A stretch of DNA of 64,000 nt from an uncultured Eubacteriales bacterium. GTDB lineage: Bacteria; Bacillota; Clostridia; Oscillospirales; Oscillospiraceae. Numbering within the stretch: position 1 is the first letter of the stretch; each line of letters opens with the position of its first letter. The position numbers and the translations under genes were made by a program. Positions 1-63,711 of the stretch are shown here, one piece after another. A model generated the notes under the pieces. It was not told the origin of the DNA, did no database searches, and was given only the letters and a program-made list of their open reading frames with translations. The DNA lies in assembly GCA_900543625.1 (NCBI GenBank), contig UQSF01000001.1, positions 79,916-143,915 of the forward strand. Direction: 5' to 3'.

Positions 1-409
1 GTGAAAGATACACGCCCAAAAAAAATTCCCGCGGCCAAAGCCCCGGAAACAGAATAGAAACATCGTGATAGATGCATCCTCGGCAGGATTTCCGCGGTCA
101 AGCCACCTGCTGTCTTTGGAGCGCTCCAATATAATACCAGACGTCTGCGCGCGTGTCAAGCATTTTTGCGGGCAAAAATGCATTTTCTCCTGCCGTGTGT
201 GCGCTTTTTAAAAAGCGAGATGCCCCCCGGAGGAGCACCGGAGACCATCTCAAAAATCCCACAAAAAACTTTTACCCTAAACTGCTATGGTCAGTCTAAC
301 AAATATTCTCACAAAAGTCAAGCCTCACTTGTGACAAAGCGAGGCGTCTGCGCATTTTGCACACAGGCGTGTAAGTCTGCTGCATATGCCGCAAAACCGC
401 ACGTTTTTT

Positions 410-3712: not shown

Positions 3713-3752
3713 AACACCGCCCCCGGCAGCTTCGGCTGCCGGGGGCGGTGTT
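3713..3752. terminator. perfect GC hairpin (upstream copy of duplicated terminator core CCCCGGCAGCTTCGGCTGCCGGGG)
   Basis: AACACCGCCCCCGGCAGC-TTCG-GCTGCCGGGGGCGGTGTT; same core repeated at 3957-3980. Confidence 0.6.
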
Positions 3753-3950
3753 AGACTGTCAAAAAGTATTACTTTTTGACACGGGGATTTGCGGCCTGAC
3801 TGCAGCGCACGCGCCGCTCGCCAAAAGCGAACGGCGCGCACGTTTGCAGGCCGAGCAGTATTTTCTCAGCCGCACATGTCGCCTGAGAAAATGATCGGAC
3901 TTTCTTTCGCCGCTGCGGCGGCGAAACTCTACGAGGTTTTTGACAAGCTG
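3753..3950 (+). repeat. copy 1 of ~200-bp hairpin-rich intergenic repeat family (TGTCAAAAAG-palindrome element)
   Basis: starts AGACTGTCAAAAAGTATTACTTTTTGACA, ends TTTTTGACAAGCTG; conserved internal hairpins shared with copies at 37703, 43256, 51801, 63475. Confidence 0.85.
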
Positions 3951-3952
3951 AT

Positions 3953-3990
3953 ACGTCCCCGGCAGCTTCGGCTGCCGGGGACGTTTTTTT
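3953..3990. terminator. rho-independent terminator (downstream copy of duplicated hairpin) followed by T7 run
   Basis: ACGTCCCCGGCAGC-TTCG-GCTGCCGGGGACGT then TTTTTTT; sits between convergent genes. Confidence 0.7.
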
Positions 3991-3996
3991 GCGTCG

Positions 3997-12559: not shown

Positions 12560-12635
12560 TGGTGCTCCAGCGGGGATTCGAACCCCGGACACCCTGCTTA
12601 AAAGGCAGGTGCTCTGCCTACTGAGCTACTGGGGC
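12560..12635 (-). tRNA. tRNA-Lys (anticodon TTT)
   Basis: 76-nt cloverleaf by eye; anticodon loop CTTTTAA; GGTTCGAATCC T-loop; CCA encoded. Confidence 0.9.
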
Positions 12636-12669
12636 ATATCGGTGTGAAAAGTTATCCGCTATCCAAAAT

Positions 12670-12760
12670 ATCAGACGCACCCAACAAATACTCAGACGCG
12701 AATCCAGCGAGAAATCCGCACCCAACAGATACTCAGACGCGAATCCAGCGAAGCGATTCG
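12670..12760. repeat. tandem direct repeat (2 copies of ~34 bp, period 41 bp) in the tRNA operon spacer
   Basis: GCACCCAACAAATACTCAGACGCGAATCCAGCGA at 12677 and GCACCCAACAGATACTCAGACGCGAATCCAGCGA at 12718. Confidence 0.6.
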
Positions 12761-12839
12761 CGGCTGAAGAAGGAGCTGGTGTTCGGAAACGGATGCTTTC
12801 TGCTTGCAGGAAGCAGGAGTTGGAAGAACATCAGCGACG

Positions 12840-12911
12840 TGGCTGGGATGGCGGGATTCGAACCCACGATATCAGAGTCAAAGTCTGGTGTGTTACCATT
12901 ACACTACATCC
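12840..12911 (-). tRNA. tRNA-Gln (anticodon TTG)
   Basis: 72 nt; acceptor TGGGATG/CATCCCA; anticodon loop CTTTGAC; CCA encoded. Confidence 0.85.
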
Positions 12912-12964
12912 CAATATCGGGGCAAAAATCATCGGGGATCGGGATCACTCCCAATCCCCGATTT

Positions 12965-13041
12965 CGTGGGGTGGGTAAAGGGGTTCGAACCCTCGACACC
13001 CGGAACCACAATCCGGTGCTCTCCCGACTGAGCTATACCCA
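12965..13041 (-). tRNA. tRNA-His (anticodon GTG) with encoded G-1
   Basis: extra 5' G pairing with discriminator C73; anticodon loop TTGTGGT; CCA encoded. Confidence 0.9.
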
Positions 13042-13053
13042 CCATAGGTCTGA

Positions 13054-13130
<77 letters not shown>

Positions 13131-13163
13131 GCGCATGCAATATTTGGCTGCCCGCCCAGAAGG

Positions 13164-13237
13164 TATGGAGCGGGTGATGGGAATCGAACCCACGTATCCA
13201 GCTTGGAAGGCTGGTGTTCTACCATTGAACTACACCC
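13164..13237 (-). tRNA. tRNA-Gly (anticodon TCC)
   Basis: 74 nt; acceptor GCGGGTG/CACCCGC; anticodon loop CTTCCAA; CCA encoded. Confidence 0.9.
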
Positions 13238-13264
13238 GCAGAGGTCGTCCCACAATCAGCTTTA

Positions 13265-21371: not shown

Positions 21372-21662
21372 TAGGGAGCGCCTGTGCGGAAACAGGTGCA
21401 TTCTGCGATGAAGCGGGAGATTGCGGAGCTGATCTCCGGTAACTTCCGTGGAGTATGTCCGCTGCCGCGCCTTTGCACGGCAGACAATCGGGCGGTTGAG
21501 TCAGCCAGCACCAGCGTATATCACCTGCACGGCTGCATACCGGCGAGAGCCGGTTTGTTTTTCGGGCAGGGTTTGATACGCACGGAACGGTGTATGGCGA
21601 TCTCATCCGTGCGAACCGGCGGAGCCAATGCCGCCCAAAAAATTCGTAACGGAGGAAACAAC

Positions 21663-37669: not shown

Positions 37670-37702
37670 AATGCACCGACCGCTCTGCGGCCGGTGCATT
37701 TT
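37670..37702. terminator. terminator hairpin after rplQ (upstream copy; near-identical copy at 37905-37937)
   Basis: AATGCACCGACCGC-TCT-GCGGCCGGTGCATTTT; second copy differs only in loop (TTT). Confidence 0.65.
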
Positions 37703-37904
37703 CAGCTTGTCCAAAAACCTCGTAGAGTTTCGCTGCCGCCGCGGCGAAAGAAAGCCCAACCATTTTCTCCGGCGACATGTGCGGCGGAGAAAATACTTCT
37801 CGGCCTGCAAACGTGCGCGTTGTCCGCCTCCGGCGGACAGCGCGTGCGCTGCAGTCAGGCCGCAAATCCATTTGTCAAAAAAGTAGTACTTTTTTGACAG
37901 CCCC
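37703..37904 (-). repeat. copy 2 of the ~200-bp repeat family (reverse orientation)
   Basis: CAGCTTGTCCAAAAACC... ...TTTGTCAAAAAAGTAGTACTTTTTTGACAG; flanked by the duplicated rplQ terminator hairpin. Confidence 0.85.
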
Positions 37905-38009
37905 GAATGCACCGACCGCTTTGCGGCCGGTGCATTTTCTTGTTTTACACACAGGCATGCCCTGTGGTATAATAATCAATCGACAGACAGACAACAAGGA
38001 GGGACGTGT

Positions 38010-43220: not shown

Positions 43221-43254
43221 CAGCCCCGCTGCCGGGAAACCGGCAGCGGGGCTG
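43221..43254 (+). terminator. terminator hairpin after the binding-protein gene
   Basis: CAGCCCCGCTGCCGG-GAAA-CCGGCAGCGGGGCTG. Confidence 0.6.
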
Positions 43255-43255
43255 A

Positions 43256-43452
43256 CAGCTTGTCAAAAGCCTCGCAGAGTTTCGCCGCCGGAGCGGCGAA
43301 AGAAAGACCAATCATTTTCTTCGGCGACATGCGCGTCGAAGAAAATACTTCTCGGCCTGCAAACGTGCGCGCCGTCCGCCTTGAGCGGACGGCGCGTGCG
43401 ATGCAGTCAGGCCGCAAACCCCTTTGTCAAAAAGTAATACTTTTTGACAGTC
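43256..43452 (-). repeat. copy 3 of the ~200-bp repeat family (reverse orientation)
   Basis: shared internal hairpins; its TGTCAAAAAG end overlaps the TGA stop of the small membrane protein gene; no second flanking hairpin copy at this locus. Confidence 0.85.
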
Positions 43453-43705
43453 ACAGAAAAACGAAAAACAGCATCACGATCAGGTACGCGAACGCGAGCG
43501 TCATCGGCGCGAGTGCGAGTGCGGCGGTCAGCCGCCAGTCGTCCTCGCGCTCGACCGTGCCTTCATAGACCGGCTCCGCCATGGCGGCGAGTGAGCCGTG
43601 CAGATAGCTGCGGTAGAGCTTCAAAAACCGCTTTCCGTCGCGGCGGCCGGTGCTGTAGGCCGACTGCTCCGGTGTGCGGGGCTGCAGGGCGTGGTGTGTG
43701 CGCAT
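43451..43705 (-). CDS. small C-terminally membrane-anchored protein (84 aa)
   Basis: strong GAGGAGGAA RBS + ATG 43705; C-terminal TM LALAPMTLAFAYLIVMLFFVFL; immediately downstream of the PP2C gene. Confidence 0.55.
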   Translation of the reverse strand: MRTHHALQPRTPEQSAYSTGRRDGKRFLKLYRSYLHGSLAAMAEPVYEGTVEREDDWRLTAALALAPMTLAFAYLIVMLFFVFL

Positions 43706-43777
43706 CCGGTGTTCCTCCTCATGCTCGAAAGGTGTCGAATCGTTCAAAAGCTATTATACGCATTATGCCGCCGCGCG

Positions 43778-51744: not shown

Positions 51745-51800
51745 ACCGCATTTTATAACGAAAAAGAGAGCTTGTCACGAATCGTGACAAGCTCTCTTTT

Positions 51801-51974
51801 CAGTTTACCAAAGAACCTCGTAGCCTTTCGCCGCCGCAGCGGCGAAAGAAAGTCCGATCATTTTCTTCGGCGACATGTGCGGCGAAGAAAATACCGCTCA
51901 GGCTGCAAGTGTGGAATTTGTGCGCGCAGCAGACTGCAATCCCTTTGTCAAAAAGTATTACTTTTTGACAGTCT
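51801..51974 (-). repeat. copy 4 of the repeat family (reverse orientation, shorter: lacks the central variable hairpin)
   Basis: flanked by hairpins AGAGAGCTTGTCACGAATCGTGACAAGCTCTCT (51765-51797) and AGAGAGCTTGTGACAAGCTCTCT (51977-51999). Confidence 0.8.
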
Positions 51975-52015
51975 CAAGAGAGCTTGTGACAAGCTCTCTT
52001 TTTTGCGCCCTGCGC

Positions 52016-63438: not shown

Positions 63439-63472
63439 TACGGCGCCGGACGGAGATCCCGTCCGGCGCCGT
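63439..63472. terminator. terminator hairpin (upstream copy; identical 35-bp copy at 63673-63707)
   Basis: TACGGCGCCGGACGG-AGATC-CCGTCCGGCGCCGTG present identically on both sides of repeat copy 5. Confidence 0.7.
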
Positions 63473-63474
63473 GG

Positions 63475-63672
63475 AGACTGTCAAAAAGTAATACTTTTTG
63501 ACAAAGGAGTTTGCGGCCTGACTGCAGCGCACGCGCCGTCCGCCCAAGGCAGACGGCGCGCACGTTTGCAGGCCGAGAAGTATTTTCTTCGCCGCACATG
63601 TCGCCGAAGAAAATGATCGGACTTTCTTTCGCCGCTCCGGCGGCGAAACTCTACGAGGTTTTTGGACAAGCT
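63475..63672 (+). repeat. copy 5 of the ~200-bp repeat family, flanked by a perfect 35-bp duplication
   Basis: GAGACTGTCAAAAAGTAATACTTTTTGACA... ...GGTTTTTGGACAAGCTG. Confidence 0.85.
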
Positions 63673-63711
63673 GTACGGCGCCGGACGGAGATCCCGTCCG
63701 GCGCCGTGCGT

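What the first reader, a model, noticed from the sequence alone, without database searches (positions are those of the whole stretch)
3713..3990. Family of five ~200-bp hairpin-rich repeats with TGTCAAAAAG terminal inverted motifs, all sitting in intergenic terminators
Five copies of one conserved non-coding element lie in this 64 kb: 3753-3950 (+), 37703-37904 (-), 43256-43452 (-), 51801-51974 (-, shorter), 63475-63672 (+). Consensus as read: 5'-(AGA)CTGTCAAAAAGTAWTACTTTTTGACA - long imperfect hairpin GGCCTGACTGCAGCGCACGCGCC[GTCCGCC-N3-5-GGCGGAC]GGCGCGCACGTTTGCAGGCC - hairpin TTTTCTYSG-CCGCACATGTCGCC-SRAGAAAA - hairpin TTTCGCCGC-NNNN-GCGGCGAAA - CTCTACGAGGTTTTTGRACAAGCTG-3'. The 5' end is a perfect 25-bp palindrome. 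The 3' end carries an inverted partial copy (CTTGTCAAAA), so the element has ~10-bp imperfect terminal inverted repeats plus an internal third copy of the motif. No ORF. Four of five copies sit between convergent genes. Five copies in 64 kb is a high density. The architecture resembles a MITE or PATE-like small mobile element, or a REP/BIME-like structured repeat. I do not recognise it as a named family.
Basis: seen in the sequence. Interest (0 to 1): 0.85.

Follow-up and report, generated by a model that had tools for sequence, protein, structure and literature searches.

The report
Mobile repeat that duplicates gene terminators
The five repeats are copies of a 200-bp non-coding mobile element, abundant in common human-gut Oscillospiraceae, that inserts at the hairpin ending a gene and leaves a full copy of that hairpin on each side; only a few full-size insertion sequences are known to do this, and the enzyme that moves it was not found.

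Summary
In detail: five copies at the stated coordinates, and at least 246 related hits in 1.86 Mb of fetched DNA. Each copy lies between two direct copies of the local terminator stem-loop, whose sequence differs from site to site. Three clean filled/empty site pairs show one hairpin before insertion and two after, giving target-site duplications of 25, 33 and 36 bp. Across 89 copies the duplication is 14-45 bp (median 29), and its ends coincide with the feet of the stem. So this is a non-autonomous, MITE-like transposable element that picks its target by DNA structure. The closest precedents are IS1630/ISMhom-1 (IS30 family), which duplicate inverted repeats, and IS1272 (IS1182 family), which targets stem-loops. 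The interior is four hairpins with compensatory changes and an almost invariant 11-nt loop. In orthologous copies the stems change 3-10 times more slowly than the linkers. No strand-specific G·U signal, promoter, ORF or Rfam match was found. No autonomous partner turned up in 1.86 Mb of loci. About 605 kb of Vescimonas fastidiosa carries no annotated transposase, with 24 copies counted in its first 500 kb. Verdict: a new variant of a known kind, with the mobilising enzyme unidentified.

The parts
3713..3752 (.). c1 left copy of the terminator hairpin (AACACCGCCCCCGGCAGC-TTCG-GCTGCCGGGGGCGGTGTT). The 24-bp duplicated core is 3721-3744. Read on the - strand it is followed by a T-rich tail.
3753..3950 (+). 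c1 element, subfamily A: palindrome hp0, long hairpin hp1, hairpin hp2 with loop CCGCACATGTCGC, hairpin hp3, and the 3' end ...GGTTTTTGACAAGCTG.
3953..3991 (.). c1 right copy of the hairpin (duplicated core 3957-3980) plus a T-run. It is predicted as an intrinsic terminator for the + strand gene.
37670..37702 (.). c2 right-hand (in element orientation) copy of the 33-bp duplicated hairpin aaaatgcaccggccgcaGagcggtcggtgcatt.
37703..37905 (-). c2 element, subfamily A, with a 27-bp palindrome variant. Other strains of the same species carry an element in the opposite orientation at this site, or none.
37906..37938 (.). c2 left-hand copy of the 33-bp duplicated hairpin.
43221..43254 (.). c3 single flanking hairpin CAGCCCCGCTGCCGG-TTTC-CCGGCAGCGGGGCTG, on the element's right side. 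No left copy is present.
43256..43454 (-). c3 element, subfamily A. Its first bases (CTG TGA) close the 98-aa ORF at 43451-43747.
51762..51800 (.). c4 right-hand hairpin AAAAGAGAGCTTGTCACGA/TCGTGACAAGCTCTCTTTT.
51801..51975 (-). c4 element with a B-type hp1 carrying an internal deletion. The ortholog in MAG CAJMPW (L017) is reduced to the palindrome plus the 3' end.
51976..52000 (.). c4 left-hand hairpin, a shortened copy (aagagagcttgt-ca-caagctctctt) of the right-hand one.
63439..63473 (.). c5 left copy of the 35-bp perfect target-site duplication TACGGCGCCGGACGGAGATCCCGTCCGGCGCCGTG.
63474..63673 (+). c5 element, subfamily A, used as the reference copy.
63674..63708 (.). c5 right copy of the 35-bp duplication.

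Best explanation
A family of about 200-bp non-autonomous (MITE-like) DNA transposable elements that choose their target by structure, not sequence. SHOWN: the element inserts at a pre-existing GC-rich stem-loop, usually the intrinsic terminator at a gene's 3' end. The whole stem-loop ends up duplicated in direct orientation on both sides. The upstream A-run stays with the left copy and the T-run with the right copy. [quoted passage not shown] These two positions are about 30 bp apart in B-DNA but adjacent across the four-way junction when the palindrome is extruded as a cruciform. Gap repair then copies the hairpin, which is pathway b of the model in PMC5678879. INFERRED: the reaction is done in trans by a DDE-type transposase that recognises the (G/C)AG-C(T)TGTCAAAAA termini. 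The best candidates are an IS1630-like IS30-family enzyme or an IS1182-family enzyme. IS1202-type is less likely because its duplications have fixed length. INFERRED consequence: each convergent gene keeps a hairpin with a U-tract, but only after transcribing through the element, so the element becomes part of both 3' UTRs. The four internal hairpins are conserved by structure and change slowly in orthologous copies. They are therefore needed for mobility, for a function in place, or both.
For: Target-site duplication: 89 of 147 distinct full-length copies have a flanking direct repeat of 14-45 bp (median 29). It ends 4 nt before CTGTC and restarts right after ..GCTG. Structure-defined: duplicated segments fold at a median of -22.1 kcal/mol against -5.3 for length-matched random windows. 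The stem starts at the first nucleotide of the duplication in 50 of 84 and ends within 0-2 nt of its 3' end in 66 of 84; the sequences are unrelated between sites. Empty sites: L018 against L003 (25 bp), L132 against L013 (33 bp, flanks 99% identical) and L163 against L122 (36 bp) each show one hairpin before and two after, with more candidates. Mobility within one species: at the c2 site 7 strains have the element in one orientation, 2 in the other with different internal SNPs, and 1 lacks it. Orientation shows no strong bias relative to the T-run (28 to 17), as expected for a symmetric target. Tandem array of three copies with period 238 in L029. Terminal inverted repeats match about 12 of 15; no ORF, no promoter, no Rfam family. 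Copy number: 246 nhmmer hits in 1.86 Mb; 5 in this 64 kb; 24 in 500 kb of V. fastidiosa. Precedents: IS1630 gives duplications of 16-26 bp at inverted repeats of variable sequence (PMC2853133, PMC3317919; Calcutt 1999, cited there); ISMhom-1 (PMC7648426); IS1272 targets stem-loops, and the published model predicts whole stem-loop duplication (PMC5678879).
Against: No autonomous element with these termini was found. It is absent from the 64-kb window, from the 60 genome loci, from the 120 metagenome loci, and from two dedicated searches for inverted ends 0.6-4 kb apart. About 605 kb of V. fastidiosa has no CDS annotated as transposase. The enzyme family is therefore pure inference. Within a genome, copies are only 85% identical at the median, and the best non-tandem pair is 96%. 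Most insertions are shared by two sister MAGs, so much of the family is old, and some presence/absence differences could be deletion between the direct repeats rather than new insertion. A strongly conserved, covarying interior is unusual for a DDE-mobilised MITE. 58 of 147 copies lack a clear duplication; they show different hairpins on the two sides, a flipped loop, or one hairpin lost.
Confidence: 0.7

Rival explanations
1. The elements are now mainly domesticated 3'-end modules, in the manner of REP/BIME. Multi-hairpin DNA or RNA placed between genes would stabilise 3' ends, insulate convergent transcription, or bind a host protein at the TGTC...GACA palindrome. Selection in place, not ongoing transposition, would then explain their conservation. 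This is compatible with an origin by transposition.
For: In 13 orthologous pairs between two sister MAGs, substitutions per site are 0.012 (palindrome), 0.008-0.031 (hp2) and 0.047 (hp1), against 0.11-0.20 in the linkers. Compensatory changes occur in all hairpins. The hp2 loop GCACATGTCGC is conserved across genera. The family is old. The element is predicted to lie in the 3' UTR of both flanking genes. No transposase was found.
Against: Gene conversion between copies demonstrably occurs: the hp1 module is swapped between orthologs L035 and L049. Conversion would give the same slow/fast pattern without selection. There is no orientation preference relative to transcription and no strand-specific G·U signal. 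Strains lacking a copy exist. No expression or binding data are available.
Confidence: 0.3
2. The element is mobilised as single-stranded DNA by an HUH/Y1 enzyme (an IS200/IS605 TnpA or a REP-associated RAYT). That would make it a PATE- or REPIN-like element whose subterminal hairpins are the recognition sites.
For: The architecture is hairpin-rich, with stems that covary and loops that are conserved, as for ssDNA-recognised ends. On the minus strand, GTAGAG directly precedes hairpin hp3, resembling the GTAG-plus-palindrome layout of REP (REP layout from my own knowledge). Both strands fold equally well.
Against: These systems make no target-site duplication and insert next to a fixed tetra- or pentanucleotide. 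Here a 14-45-bp site-specific hairpin is duplicated, and no conserved target sequence is visible in the three aligned empty sites. Terminal inverted repeats are present. No tnpA or RAYT was seen next to any copy.
Confidence: 0.07
3. Integration is done by a non-DDE enzyme that naturally attacks both borders of a roughly 30-bp palindrome: a Cas1/casposase-like integrase, a Holliday-junction-type nuclease, or a single-copy host recombinase. The element would be a parasite of that enzyme.
For: Duplication of a 24-45-bp palindromic unit by staggered attack at its two borders is formally what CRISPR spacer acquisition does to a repeat (my own knowledge). L029 holds a hairpin-element-hairpin-element array with period 238. 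No IS-type partner was found (and the Vescimonas annotation calls).
Against: No cas1 or casposon gene was seen in any locus examined, though this was not searched systematically. Casposon duplications are 14-15 bp and of fixed length (my own knowledge). The precise element ends with inverted repeats are typical of transposase recognition. DDE precedents (IS1630, IS1272) already explain the behaviour.
Confidence: 0.07
4. It is a family of structured non-coding RNA genes (an sRNA or a cis-acting 3' UTR RNA), or an RNA-mediated, SINE-like retroelement, rather than a DNA transposon.
For: The fold is strong (z = -5.6 and -5.9). There are 44 consensus pairs, 6 of them with compensatory double changes. 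The loop is conserved. Variable-length target duplications are also typical of target-primed reverse transcription (my own knowledge).
Against: No promoter lies inside the element. No Rfam match. Stems show 3 G·U against 8 A·C in hp2, and there is no asymmetry between strands. The element occurs in both orientations at the same site. There is no poly-A or 3' tail, both ends are precise, and no adjacent reverse transcriptase was seen.
Confidence: 0.05

Closest known systems
IS1630 (Mycoplasma fermentans) and ISMhom-1 (M. hominis), IS30 family
   Same: They insert at inverted repeats or stem-loops of variable length and sequence and duplicate them, with reported duplications of 16-26 bp. The sites are often just downstream of genes, so ORFs stay intact (PMC2853133, PMC3317919, PMC7648426; Calcutt et al. 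1999, cited there).
   Different: They are autonomous 1.2-1.4-kb insertion sequences with a transposase gene and 27-bp terminal repeats in AT-rich Mollicutes. The present element is 200 bp and non-coding, with weak repeats of about 15 bp plus a 25-bp palindrome at one end. Its interior is four conserved hairpins, its duplications run 14-45 bp, and its hosts are GC-rich Oscillospiraceae. No IS30-type partner was found.
IS1272 / IS1182 family (Staphylococcus)
   Same: The target is a stem-loop recognised by structure, with unrelated target sequences. The authors' cruciform model includes a pathway that duplicates the whole stem-loop. Some forms carry an extra copy of the left end, as does this element's third terminal motif (PMC5678879).
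   Different: IS1272 replaces the stem-loop and leaves no duplication. It is a 1.9-kb element encoding a 548-aa transposase. Its terminal repeat sequences could not be compared here.
IS1202 subgroup of the IS1202 family
   Same: Long duplications of 27-28 bp, found in Firmicutes, with ends beginning TGT (10.1101/2022.12.17.520857). The element's terminal motif is TGTCAAAAA, and its median duplication is 29 bp.
   Different: IS1202 duplications have fixed length, and the paper does not mention palindromes or terminators ('palindrom' and 'terminator' each occur 0 times). Here the length follows the size of each hairpin: 25, 33 and 36 bp in the three clean cases.
Classical bacterial MITEs (Correia/NEMIS, RUP, MITEAba12 and others)
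   Same: Small, non-coding, multicopy and intergenic, with terminal inverted repeats and a target-site duplication. They can alter the 3' ends of transcripts.
   Different: They give short duplications of fixed length (2-10 bp), usually with a sequence preference, and their interior is not conserved as structure.
REP/BIME and REPIN-RAYT systems
   Same: Hairpin-rich extragenic repeats concentrated at gene 3' ends and between convergent genes, conserved as structure, at tens to hundreds of copies per genome.
   Different: REPs are themselves the 20-40-nt hairpins, all of one family sequence, and make no target-site duplication. Here the flanking hairpins are unique to each locus, and the repeat is the 200-bp unit between them.
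Bacterial class C group II introns
   Same: They use intrinsic terminator stem-loops as insertion sites, which avoids damaging genes (my own knowledge).
   Different: They are ribozyme plus reverse transcriptase elements of about 2 kb that insert downstream of the hairpin without duplicating it.

Membership tests
MITE (non-autonomous DNA transposon) | Small size (under about 500 bp) and no coding capacity | tested here: met
   197-208 bp. No conserved ORF, and the candidate ATG-ORF is interrupted in Vescimonas copies.
MITE (non-autonomous DNA transposon) | Terminal inverted repeats | tested here: met
   GAGACTGTCAAAAAG against CAGCTTGTCAAAAAC, about 12 of 15 with one indel. This is weak but conserved across subfamilies.
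MITE (non-autonomous DNA transposon) | Target-site duplication created on insertion, shown by filled versus empty sites | tested here: met
   Three clean pairs with duplications of 25, 33 and 36 bp; 89 of 147 copies have a flanking direct repeat.
MITE (non-autonomous DNA transposon) | Multiple dispersed copies with insertion polymorphism | tested here: met
   246 hits in 1.86 Mb; presence and orientation vary within one species.
MITE (non-autonomous DNA transposon) | A related autonomous element with the same ends that encodes the transposase | tested here: inconclusive
   None in the window, in 180 fetched loci, or in about 605 kb of V. fastidiosa. Whole genomes could not be scanned, and MAGs usually lack insertion sequences.
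IS30 family, IS1630-like derivative | Insertion duplicates an inverted repeat or stem-loop of variable length and sequence | tested here: met
IS30 family, IS1630-like derivative | Ends matching the terminal repeats of an IS30-family element, and an IS30-type DDE transposase in the host | not testable with these tools
   No ISfinder-type library of insertion-sequence ends was available, and Calcutt 1999 is not held. No IS30 gene was seen in the DNA examined.
IS1182 family (IS1272-like) derivative | Stem-loop target chosen by structure | tested here: met
   compare PMC5678879.
IS1182 family (IS1272-like) derivative | Replacement of the stem-loop without a duplication (IS1272 behaviour) | tested here: not met
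   The stem-loop is duplicated, not removed.
IS1202 subgroup derivative | Fixed 27-28-bp duplication | tested here: not met
   The duplication varies from 14 to 45 bp and tracks hairpin size.
PATE / IS200-IS605 derivative | No target-site duplication, no terminal inverted repeats, and insertion 3' of a fixed tetra- or pentanucleotide | tested here: not met
   A long duplication and terminal repeats are present, and the three aligned empty sites share no visible target motif.
REP/BIME | The unit is a 20-40-nt imperfect palindrome of one family sequence, often headed by GTAG, with no duplication of flanking DNA | tested here: not met
   The unit is 200 bp with four hairpins, and the flanking hairpins are locus-specific duplicates.
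Described structured RNA family (Rfam 15) | Match to a covariance model at its gathering score | tested here: not met
   No hit on the window or on 8 diverse loci. The best sub-threshold hits are irrelevant miRNA models.

The most novel reading that the evidence does not exclude
The element is not a decayed insertion-sequence derivative. It would be a self-contained structured DNA whose conserved hairpins, especially the invariant GCACATGTCGC loop and the TGTC...GACA palindrome, recruit a non-classical enzyme. That enzyme, possibly single-copy and host-encoded, would act on cruciform or hairpin feet; candidates are a domesticated transposase, a Cas1-like integrase or a junction-specific nuclease-ligase. 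The inserted copies would then be kept by selection as terminator-doubling 3'-end modules in very common human-gut Oscillospiraceae.
Probability: 0.2. Interest if true: 0.85.

Novelty: new variant of a known kind. Interest (0 to 1): 0.6.

Why it matters
Structure-dependent target choice, in which a transposon recognises a stem-loop rather than a sequence, is documented for only a few insertion sequences, and its mechanism has not been worked out. This family supplies hundreds of natural insertion events, with matched empty sites, in a very prevalent gut lineage. One flanking protein is indexed in more than 10,000 blocks of the assembly collection. The rules are therefore directly measurable: where the joints fall relative to the stem feet, which stem sizes are accepted, and the lack of orientation bias. 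A 200-bp substrate is also ideal for reconstitution once the enzyme is found.

For genome biology, every insertion doubles a terminator and lengthens the 3' UTRs of both neighbours by about 230 nt of stable structure. For convergent genes this creates long complementary 3' ends. That may affect mRNA stability and antisense interactions in dozens of operons per genome, including core ones such as the ribosomal-protein/rpoA/rplQ operon at copy c2.

In practice, these repeats break metagenomic assemblies, since many contigs end inside them, and could cause chimeric joins. The slow evolution of the hairpins in orthologous copies raises the testable question of domestication.

Tried and rejected
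1. Rfam at gathering score on the whole window and on 8 diverse loci, and at E-value up to 10 on one copy: nothing relevant.

2. Search for the autonomous partner.
- The genome-collection scan with the palindrome returned only 200-bp copies or deletion derivatives.
- The metagenome scan with the conserved hp2 core did the same.
- A search for inverted terminal motifs 0.6-4 kb apart and a generic inverted-repeat-plus-ORF search over 1.86 Mb gave only chance repeats inside genes.
- Genes between paired copies in L003 and L026 have translations that look like housekeeping genes, read by eye; none resembled a transposase.
- Reading about 605 kb of annotated V. fastidiosa found ICE and prophage integrases and a serine recombinase, but no transposase.
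- Plasmid and phage collections hold no relative except Vescimonas and three unannotated gut contigs.

3. A strand-of-function test by G·U against A·C counts and by comparing the folds of the two strands showed no asymmetry.

4. Internal promoter: none. The TTGACA motifs have no matching -10 box.

5. A small ORF starting at the ATG in the hp2 loop was rejected, because the stems covary and the frame is stopped in Vescimonas.

6. Tyrosine-recombinase core-site reading of the palindrome (9-bp arms with a 7-bp spacer): dropped. The palindrome covaries as a hairpin between subfamilies, and site-specific recombination does not explain duplication of locus-specific hairpins.

7. Reading the IS1630 paper (PMC94219): not held. 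The IS1272 terminal-repeat sequences are given only in figures.

8. Strain look-ups for the c3 and c4 neighbours gave only filled alleles.

Full report
**Observation**

The 10-mer TGTCAAAAAG occurs 8 times in the window against 0.07 expected. Each copy is about 200 bp and has the following layout.
- A terminal GAGA, followed by a 25-bp perfect palindrome (hp0, CTGTCAAAAAGTAWTACTTTTTGACA).
- A long imperfect hairpin (hp1).
- A 10-bp-stem hairpin with the loop CCGCACATGTCGC (hp2).
- A GC hairpin (hp3).
- The 3' end CTCTACGAGGTTTTTGRACAAGCTG.

The two termini form an imperfect inverted repeat: GAGACTGTCAAAAAG against CAGCTTGTCAAAAAC. Either strand folds far better than shuffles (-89 and -91 kcal/mol, z about -5.6 and -5.9).

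The window is chromosomal DNA of a Clostridia/Oscillospiraceae organism. It carries the S10 and L10 leaders, a tRNA cluster and the ribosomal-protein operon. It is about 95% identical to two uncultured Oscillospiraceae MAGs and 76% identical to Vescimonas fastidiosa in the ribosomal operon.

Four of the five copies are bracketed by a direct duplication of a hairpin that is different at every site.
- c5: 35 bp, perfect.
- c2: 33 bp, one mismatch in the loop.
- c1: a 24-bp core whose stem extensions differ compensatorily between the two copies.
- c4: the left copy has a shortened stem.
- c3: only the right-hand hairpin is present, and the left end runs into a stop codon.

**Is this general?**

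A genome-collection scan with the palindrome returned 60 loci. Almost all come from two MAGs; single contigs come from two other gut MAGs and from one 'Treponema' bin. A distant BLAST found a related family with 21 places in V. fastidiosa MM35 'plasmid' pMM35_01, which is really a chromosome piece.

A profile search gave 246 hits, 130 of them full length, in 1.86 Mb. Of 147 distinct full-length copies with both flanks, 89 have a flanking direct repeat of 14-45 bp (median 29). It ends 4 nt before CTGTC and restarts immediately after ...GCTG.

The duplicated segments are hairpins. Their median MFE is -22.1 kcal/mol, against -5.3 for length-matched random windows. The stem begins at the first duplicated base in 50 of 84 cases and ends within 0-2 nt of the last in 66 of 84. 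Their sequences are unrelated to one another. The upstream A-run stays with the left copy and the T-run with the right copy.

**Proof of insertion**

Three filled/empty comparisons are clean.

| Empty site | Filled site | Duplication |
|---|---|---|
| L018 | L003 | 25 bp |
| L132 | L013 (flanks 99% identical) | 33 bp, GACCGGCGCTCCCGAACGGGGGCGCCGGTCTTG |
| L163 | L122 | 36 bp |

In each, the empty allele has one terminator-like hairpin and the filled allele has hairpin-element-hairpin. One search lists several further candidates.

At the c2 site (rplQ downstream), ten contigs encode the identical L17 protein and are about 98% identical to the window. Seven carry the element in one orientation. 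Two carry a copy with different internal SNPs in the opposite orientation. One lacks it, having a hairpin, 38 nt of filler and half a hairpin instead.

Orientation relative to the T-run is not strongly biased (28 to 17). L029 holds three tandem copies with period 238, that is element plus hairpin.

**Interior**

There are at least three subfamilies. They differ by wholesale replacement of hp1 with another hairpin, or by an extra hairpin at the left end. All hairpins show compensatory change.
- hp0: TGTCAAAAAG.../TGTCGGAAAACC.../TGTCAGAAAG..., each with a matching 3' arm.
- hp2 stem: TTCG/CGAA, TCCG/CGGA, TCAG/CTGA and TCTC/GAGA, around an almost invariant GCACATGTCGC loop. Pair counts are WC 249, G·U 3 and A·C 8 of 270.
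- hp3: CGCCGC/GCGGCG, GCGCC/GGCGC and GCCGCC/GGCGGC.

RNAalifold on 50 mostly A-type copies (one is B-type) gives 44 pairs, 6 with double compensatory changes. There is no strand-specific wobble signal, and both strands fold equally well. No promoter, no conserved ORF and no Rfam family were found. I therefore read the hairpins as DNA-level features, or as features indifferent to strand.

**Age and constraint**

Within a genome, copies are 85-86% identical at the median; the best non-tandem pair is 96%. Most sites are shared by the two sister MAGs. In 13 orthologous pairs the substitutions per site are as follows.

| Region | Substitutions per site |
|---|---|
| hp0 | 0.012 |
| hp2 arms | 0.008 and 0.031 |
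| hp2 loop | 0.030 |
| hp1 | 0.047 |
| Linkers and the outermost 6 nt | 0.11-0.20 |

So the copies are not decaying uniformly. Either selection acts in place, or gene conversion from other copies maintains them. Conversion does occur: orthologs L035 and L049 are identical except that hp1 is A-type in one and B-type in the other.

**Mechanism**

Inferred:
- These positions are about 30 bp apart in B-DNA but neighbours across the junction of an extruded cruciform.
- An enzyme with an ordinary short stagger would therefore produce a duplication equal to the hairpin plus 0-4 nt after gap repair.

This is exactly 'pathway b' of the model drawn for IS1272 (PMC5678879). [quoted passage not shown] ISMhom-1 behaves the same way (PMC7648426). 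The IS1202 subgroup also makes long duplications, but of fixed 27-28 bp (10.1101/2022.12.17.520857), which does not fit the size-tracking seen here.

**The gap**

I could not find the enzyme.
- No longer element with these ends occurs in the window, in the 180 genome and metagenome loci, or in targeted searches.
- Genes lying between paired copies look like housekeeping genes from their translations, and none resembled a transposase.
- About 605 kb of annotated V. fastidiosa has no transposase CDS, and 24 profile hits were counted in its first 500 kb.

MAGs and short contigs under-represent insertion sequences, the PLSDB table omits pseudogenes, and the other V. fastidiosa replicon was not available. 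Absence is therefore not established.

**Consequence for the host (inference)**

At c1 the right hairpin plus T-run is the predicted terminator for the + strand gene. The left hairpin, read on the - strand, is the predicted terminator for the convergent gene. Both transcripts should therefore traverse the element, one in sense and one in antisense, giving about 230 nt of extra structured and mutually complementary 3' UTR.

**Verdict**

The finding is a real, abundant, MITE-like element with stem-loop-duplicating, terminator-targeted insertion. I found no description of it. The behaviour has precedents in a few autonomous insertion sequences, so I rate it a new variant of a known kind. Two questions remain open: the mobilising enzyme, and the reason for the conserved four-hairpin interior.

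Noticed in passing
L029:7033-7750: Three tandem copies of the element separated by the same 36-45-bp hairpin (period 238), forming a hairpin-element array. It could come from repeated insertion into the freshly duplicated hairpin, or from unequal recombination between the direct repeats.
   Followed up: partly
L035:2281-2479 vs L049:4576-4771: These orthologous insertions in two sister MAGs are identical in flanks, palindrome and 3' two-thirds. However, one carries an A-type hp1 and the other a B-type hp1, so the module was exchanged in situ, presumably by gene conversion between copies.
   Followed up: partly
window 37670-37938; L196, L198, L201: The same terminator downstream of rplQ holds the element in either orientation in different strains. 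One strain (L201:2870-2945) instead has a hairpin, 38 nt of unrelated filler and half a hairpin. This could be a footprint or a decayed remnant.
   Followed up: partly
L008:2100-2400 vs L043:3780-4060: In L008 the right-hand flanking hairpin has its loop inverted relative to the left-hand copy (CCATCCGG against CCGGATGG), while the ortholog L043 has direct copies. This is a flip of the palindrome loop.
   Followed up: no
L016:1342-1371 and L017:2329-2380: These are deletion derivatives. L016 keeps only the 25-bp palindrome where the ortholog L050 has a full copy. L017 keeps the palindrome plus the last 20 nt where the window (c4) has a longer copy.
   Followed up: partly
window 43451-43456: At c3 the last sense codon and the stop codon (CTG TGA) of a 98-aa membrane-like ORF (43451-43747, - strand) are supplied by the element's first bases. 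The insertion or a later deletion therefore reshaped the gene's 3' end, and the left hairpin copy is missing.
   Followed up: partly
element 3' region, e.g. window 63650-63661: In CTCT[A/G]CGAGG[T/C], the A/G and T/C positions are almost always A with T or G with C across subfamilies. This is either a single covarying pair closing a 5-nt loop or linkage between lineages.
   Followed up: no
L061:3140-3930; also L064, L070, L071: V. fastidiosa intergenic regions contain clusters of a different GC-rich repeat built on GTAGGGGC/GCCCCTAC motifs with hairpins. It looks REP-like and is unrelated to the element studied.
   Followed up: no
NZ_AP023416.1 (L062-L071, L212-L216): The 861-kb 'plasmid pMM35_01' of V. 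fastidiosa carries dnaA-dnaN-recF-gyrBA, rpoBC, the ribosomal-protein operons and many tRNA synthetases. It is therefore a chromosome segment or a second chromosome, not a plasmid.
   Followed up: no
L019 (SFOB01000196.1, 3.3 kb): A contig binned as Treponema sp. carries a 92%-identical A-type copy. Its flanks closely resemble those recorded for the gut-metagenome copy L139:2423 (listing), so it is probably mis-binned.
   Followed up: no
L077, L081, L086, L087, L094, L131, L134 and others: Many metagenome contigs begin or end inside the element. The repeat breaks short-read assemblies, and this may explain copies flanked by two different hairpins as chimeric joins.
   Followed up: no
window 11-137, 12563-13239, 21400-21487: Rfam hits unrelated to the finding: the L10 leader, five tRNAs in a cluster, and the S10-Clostridia ribosomal-protein leader.
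   Followed up: no
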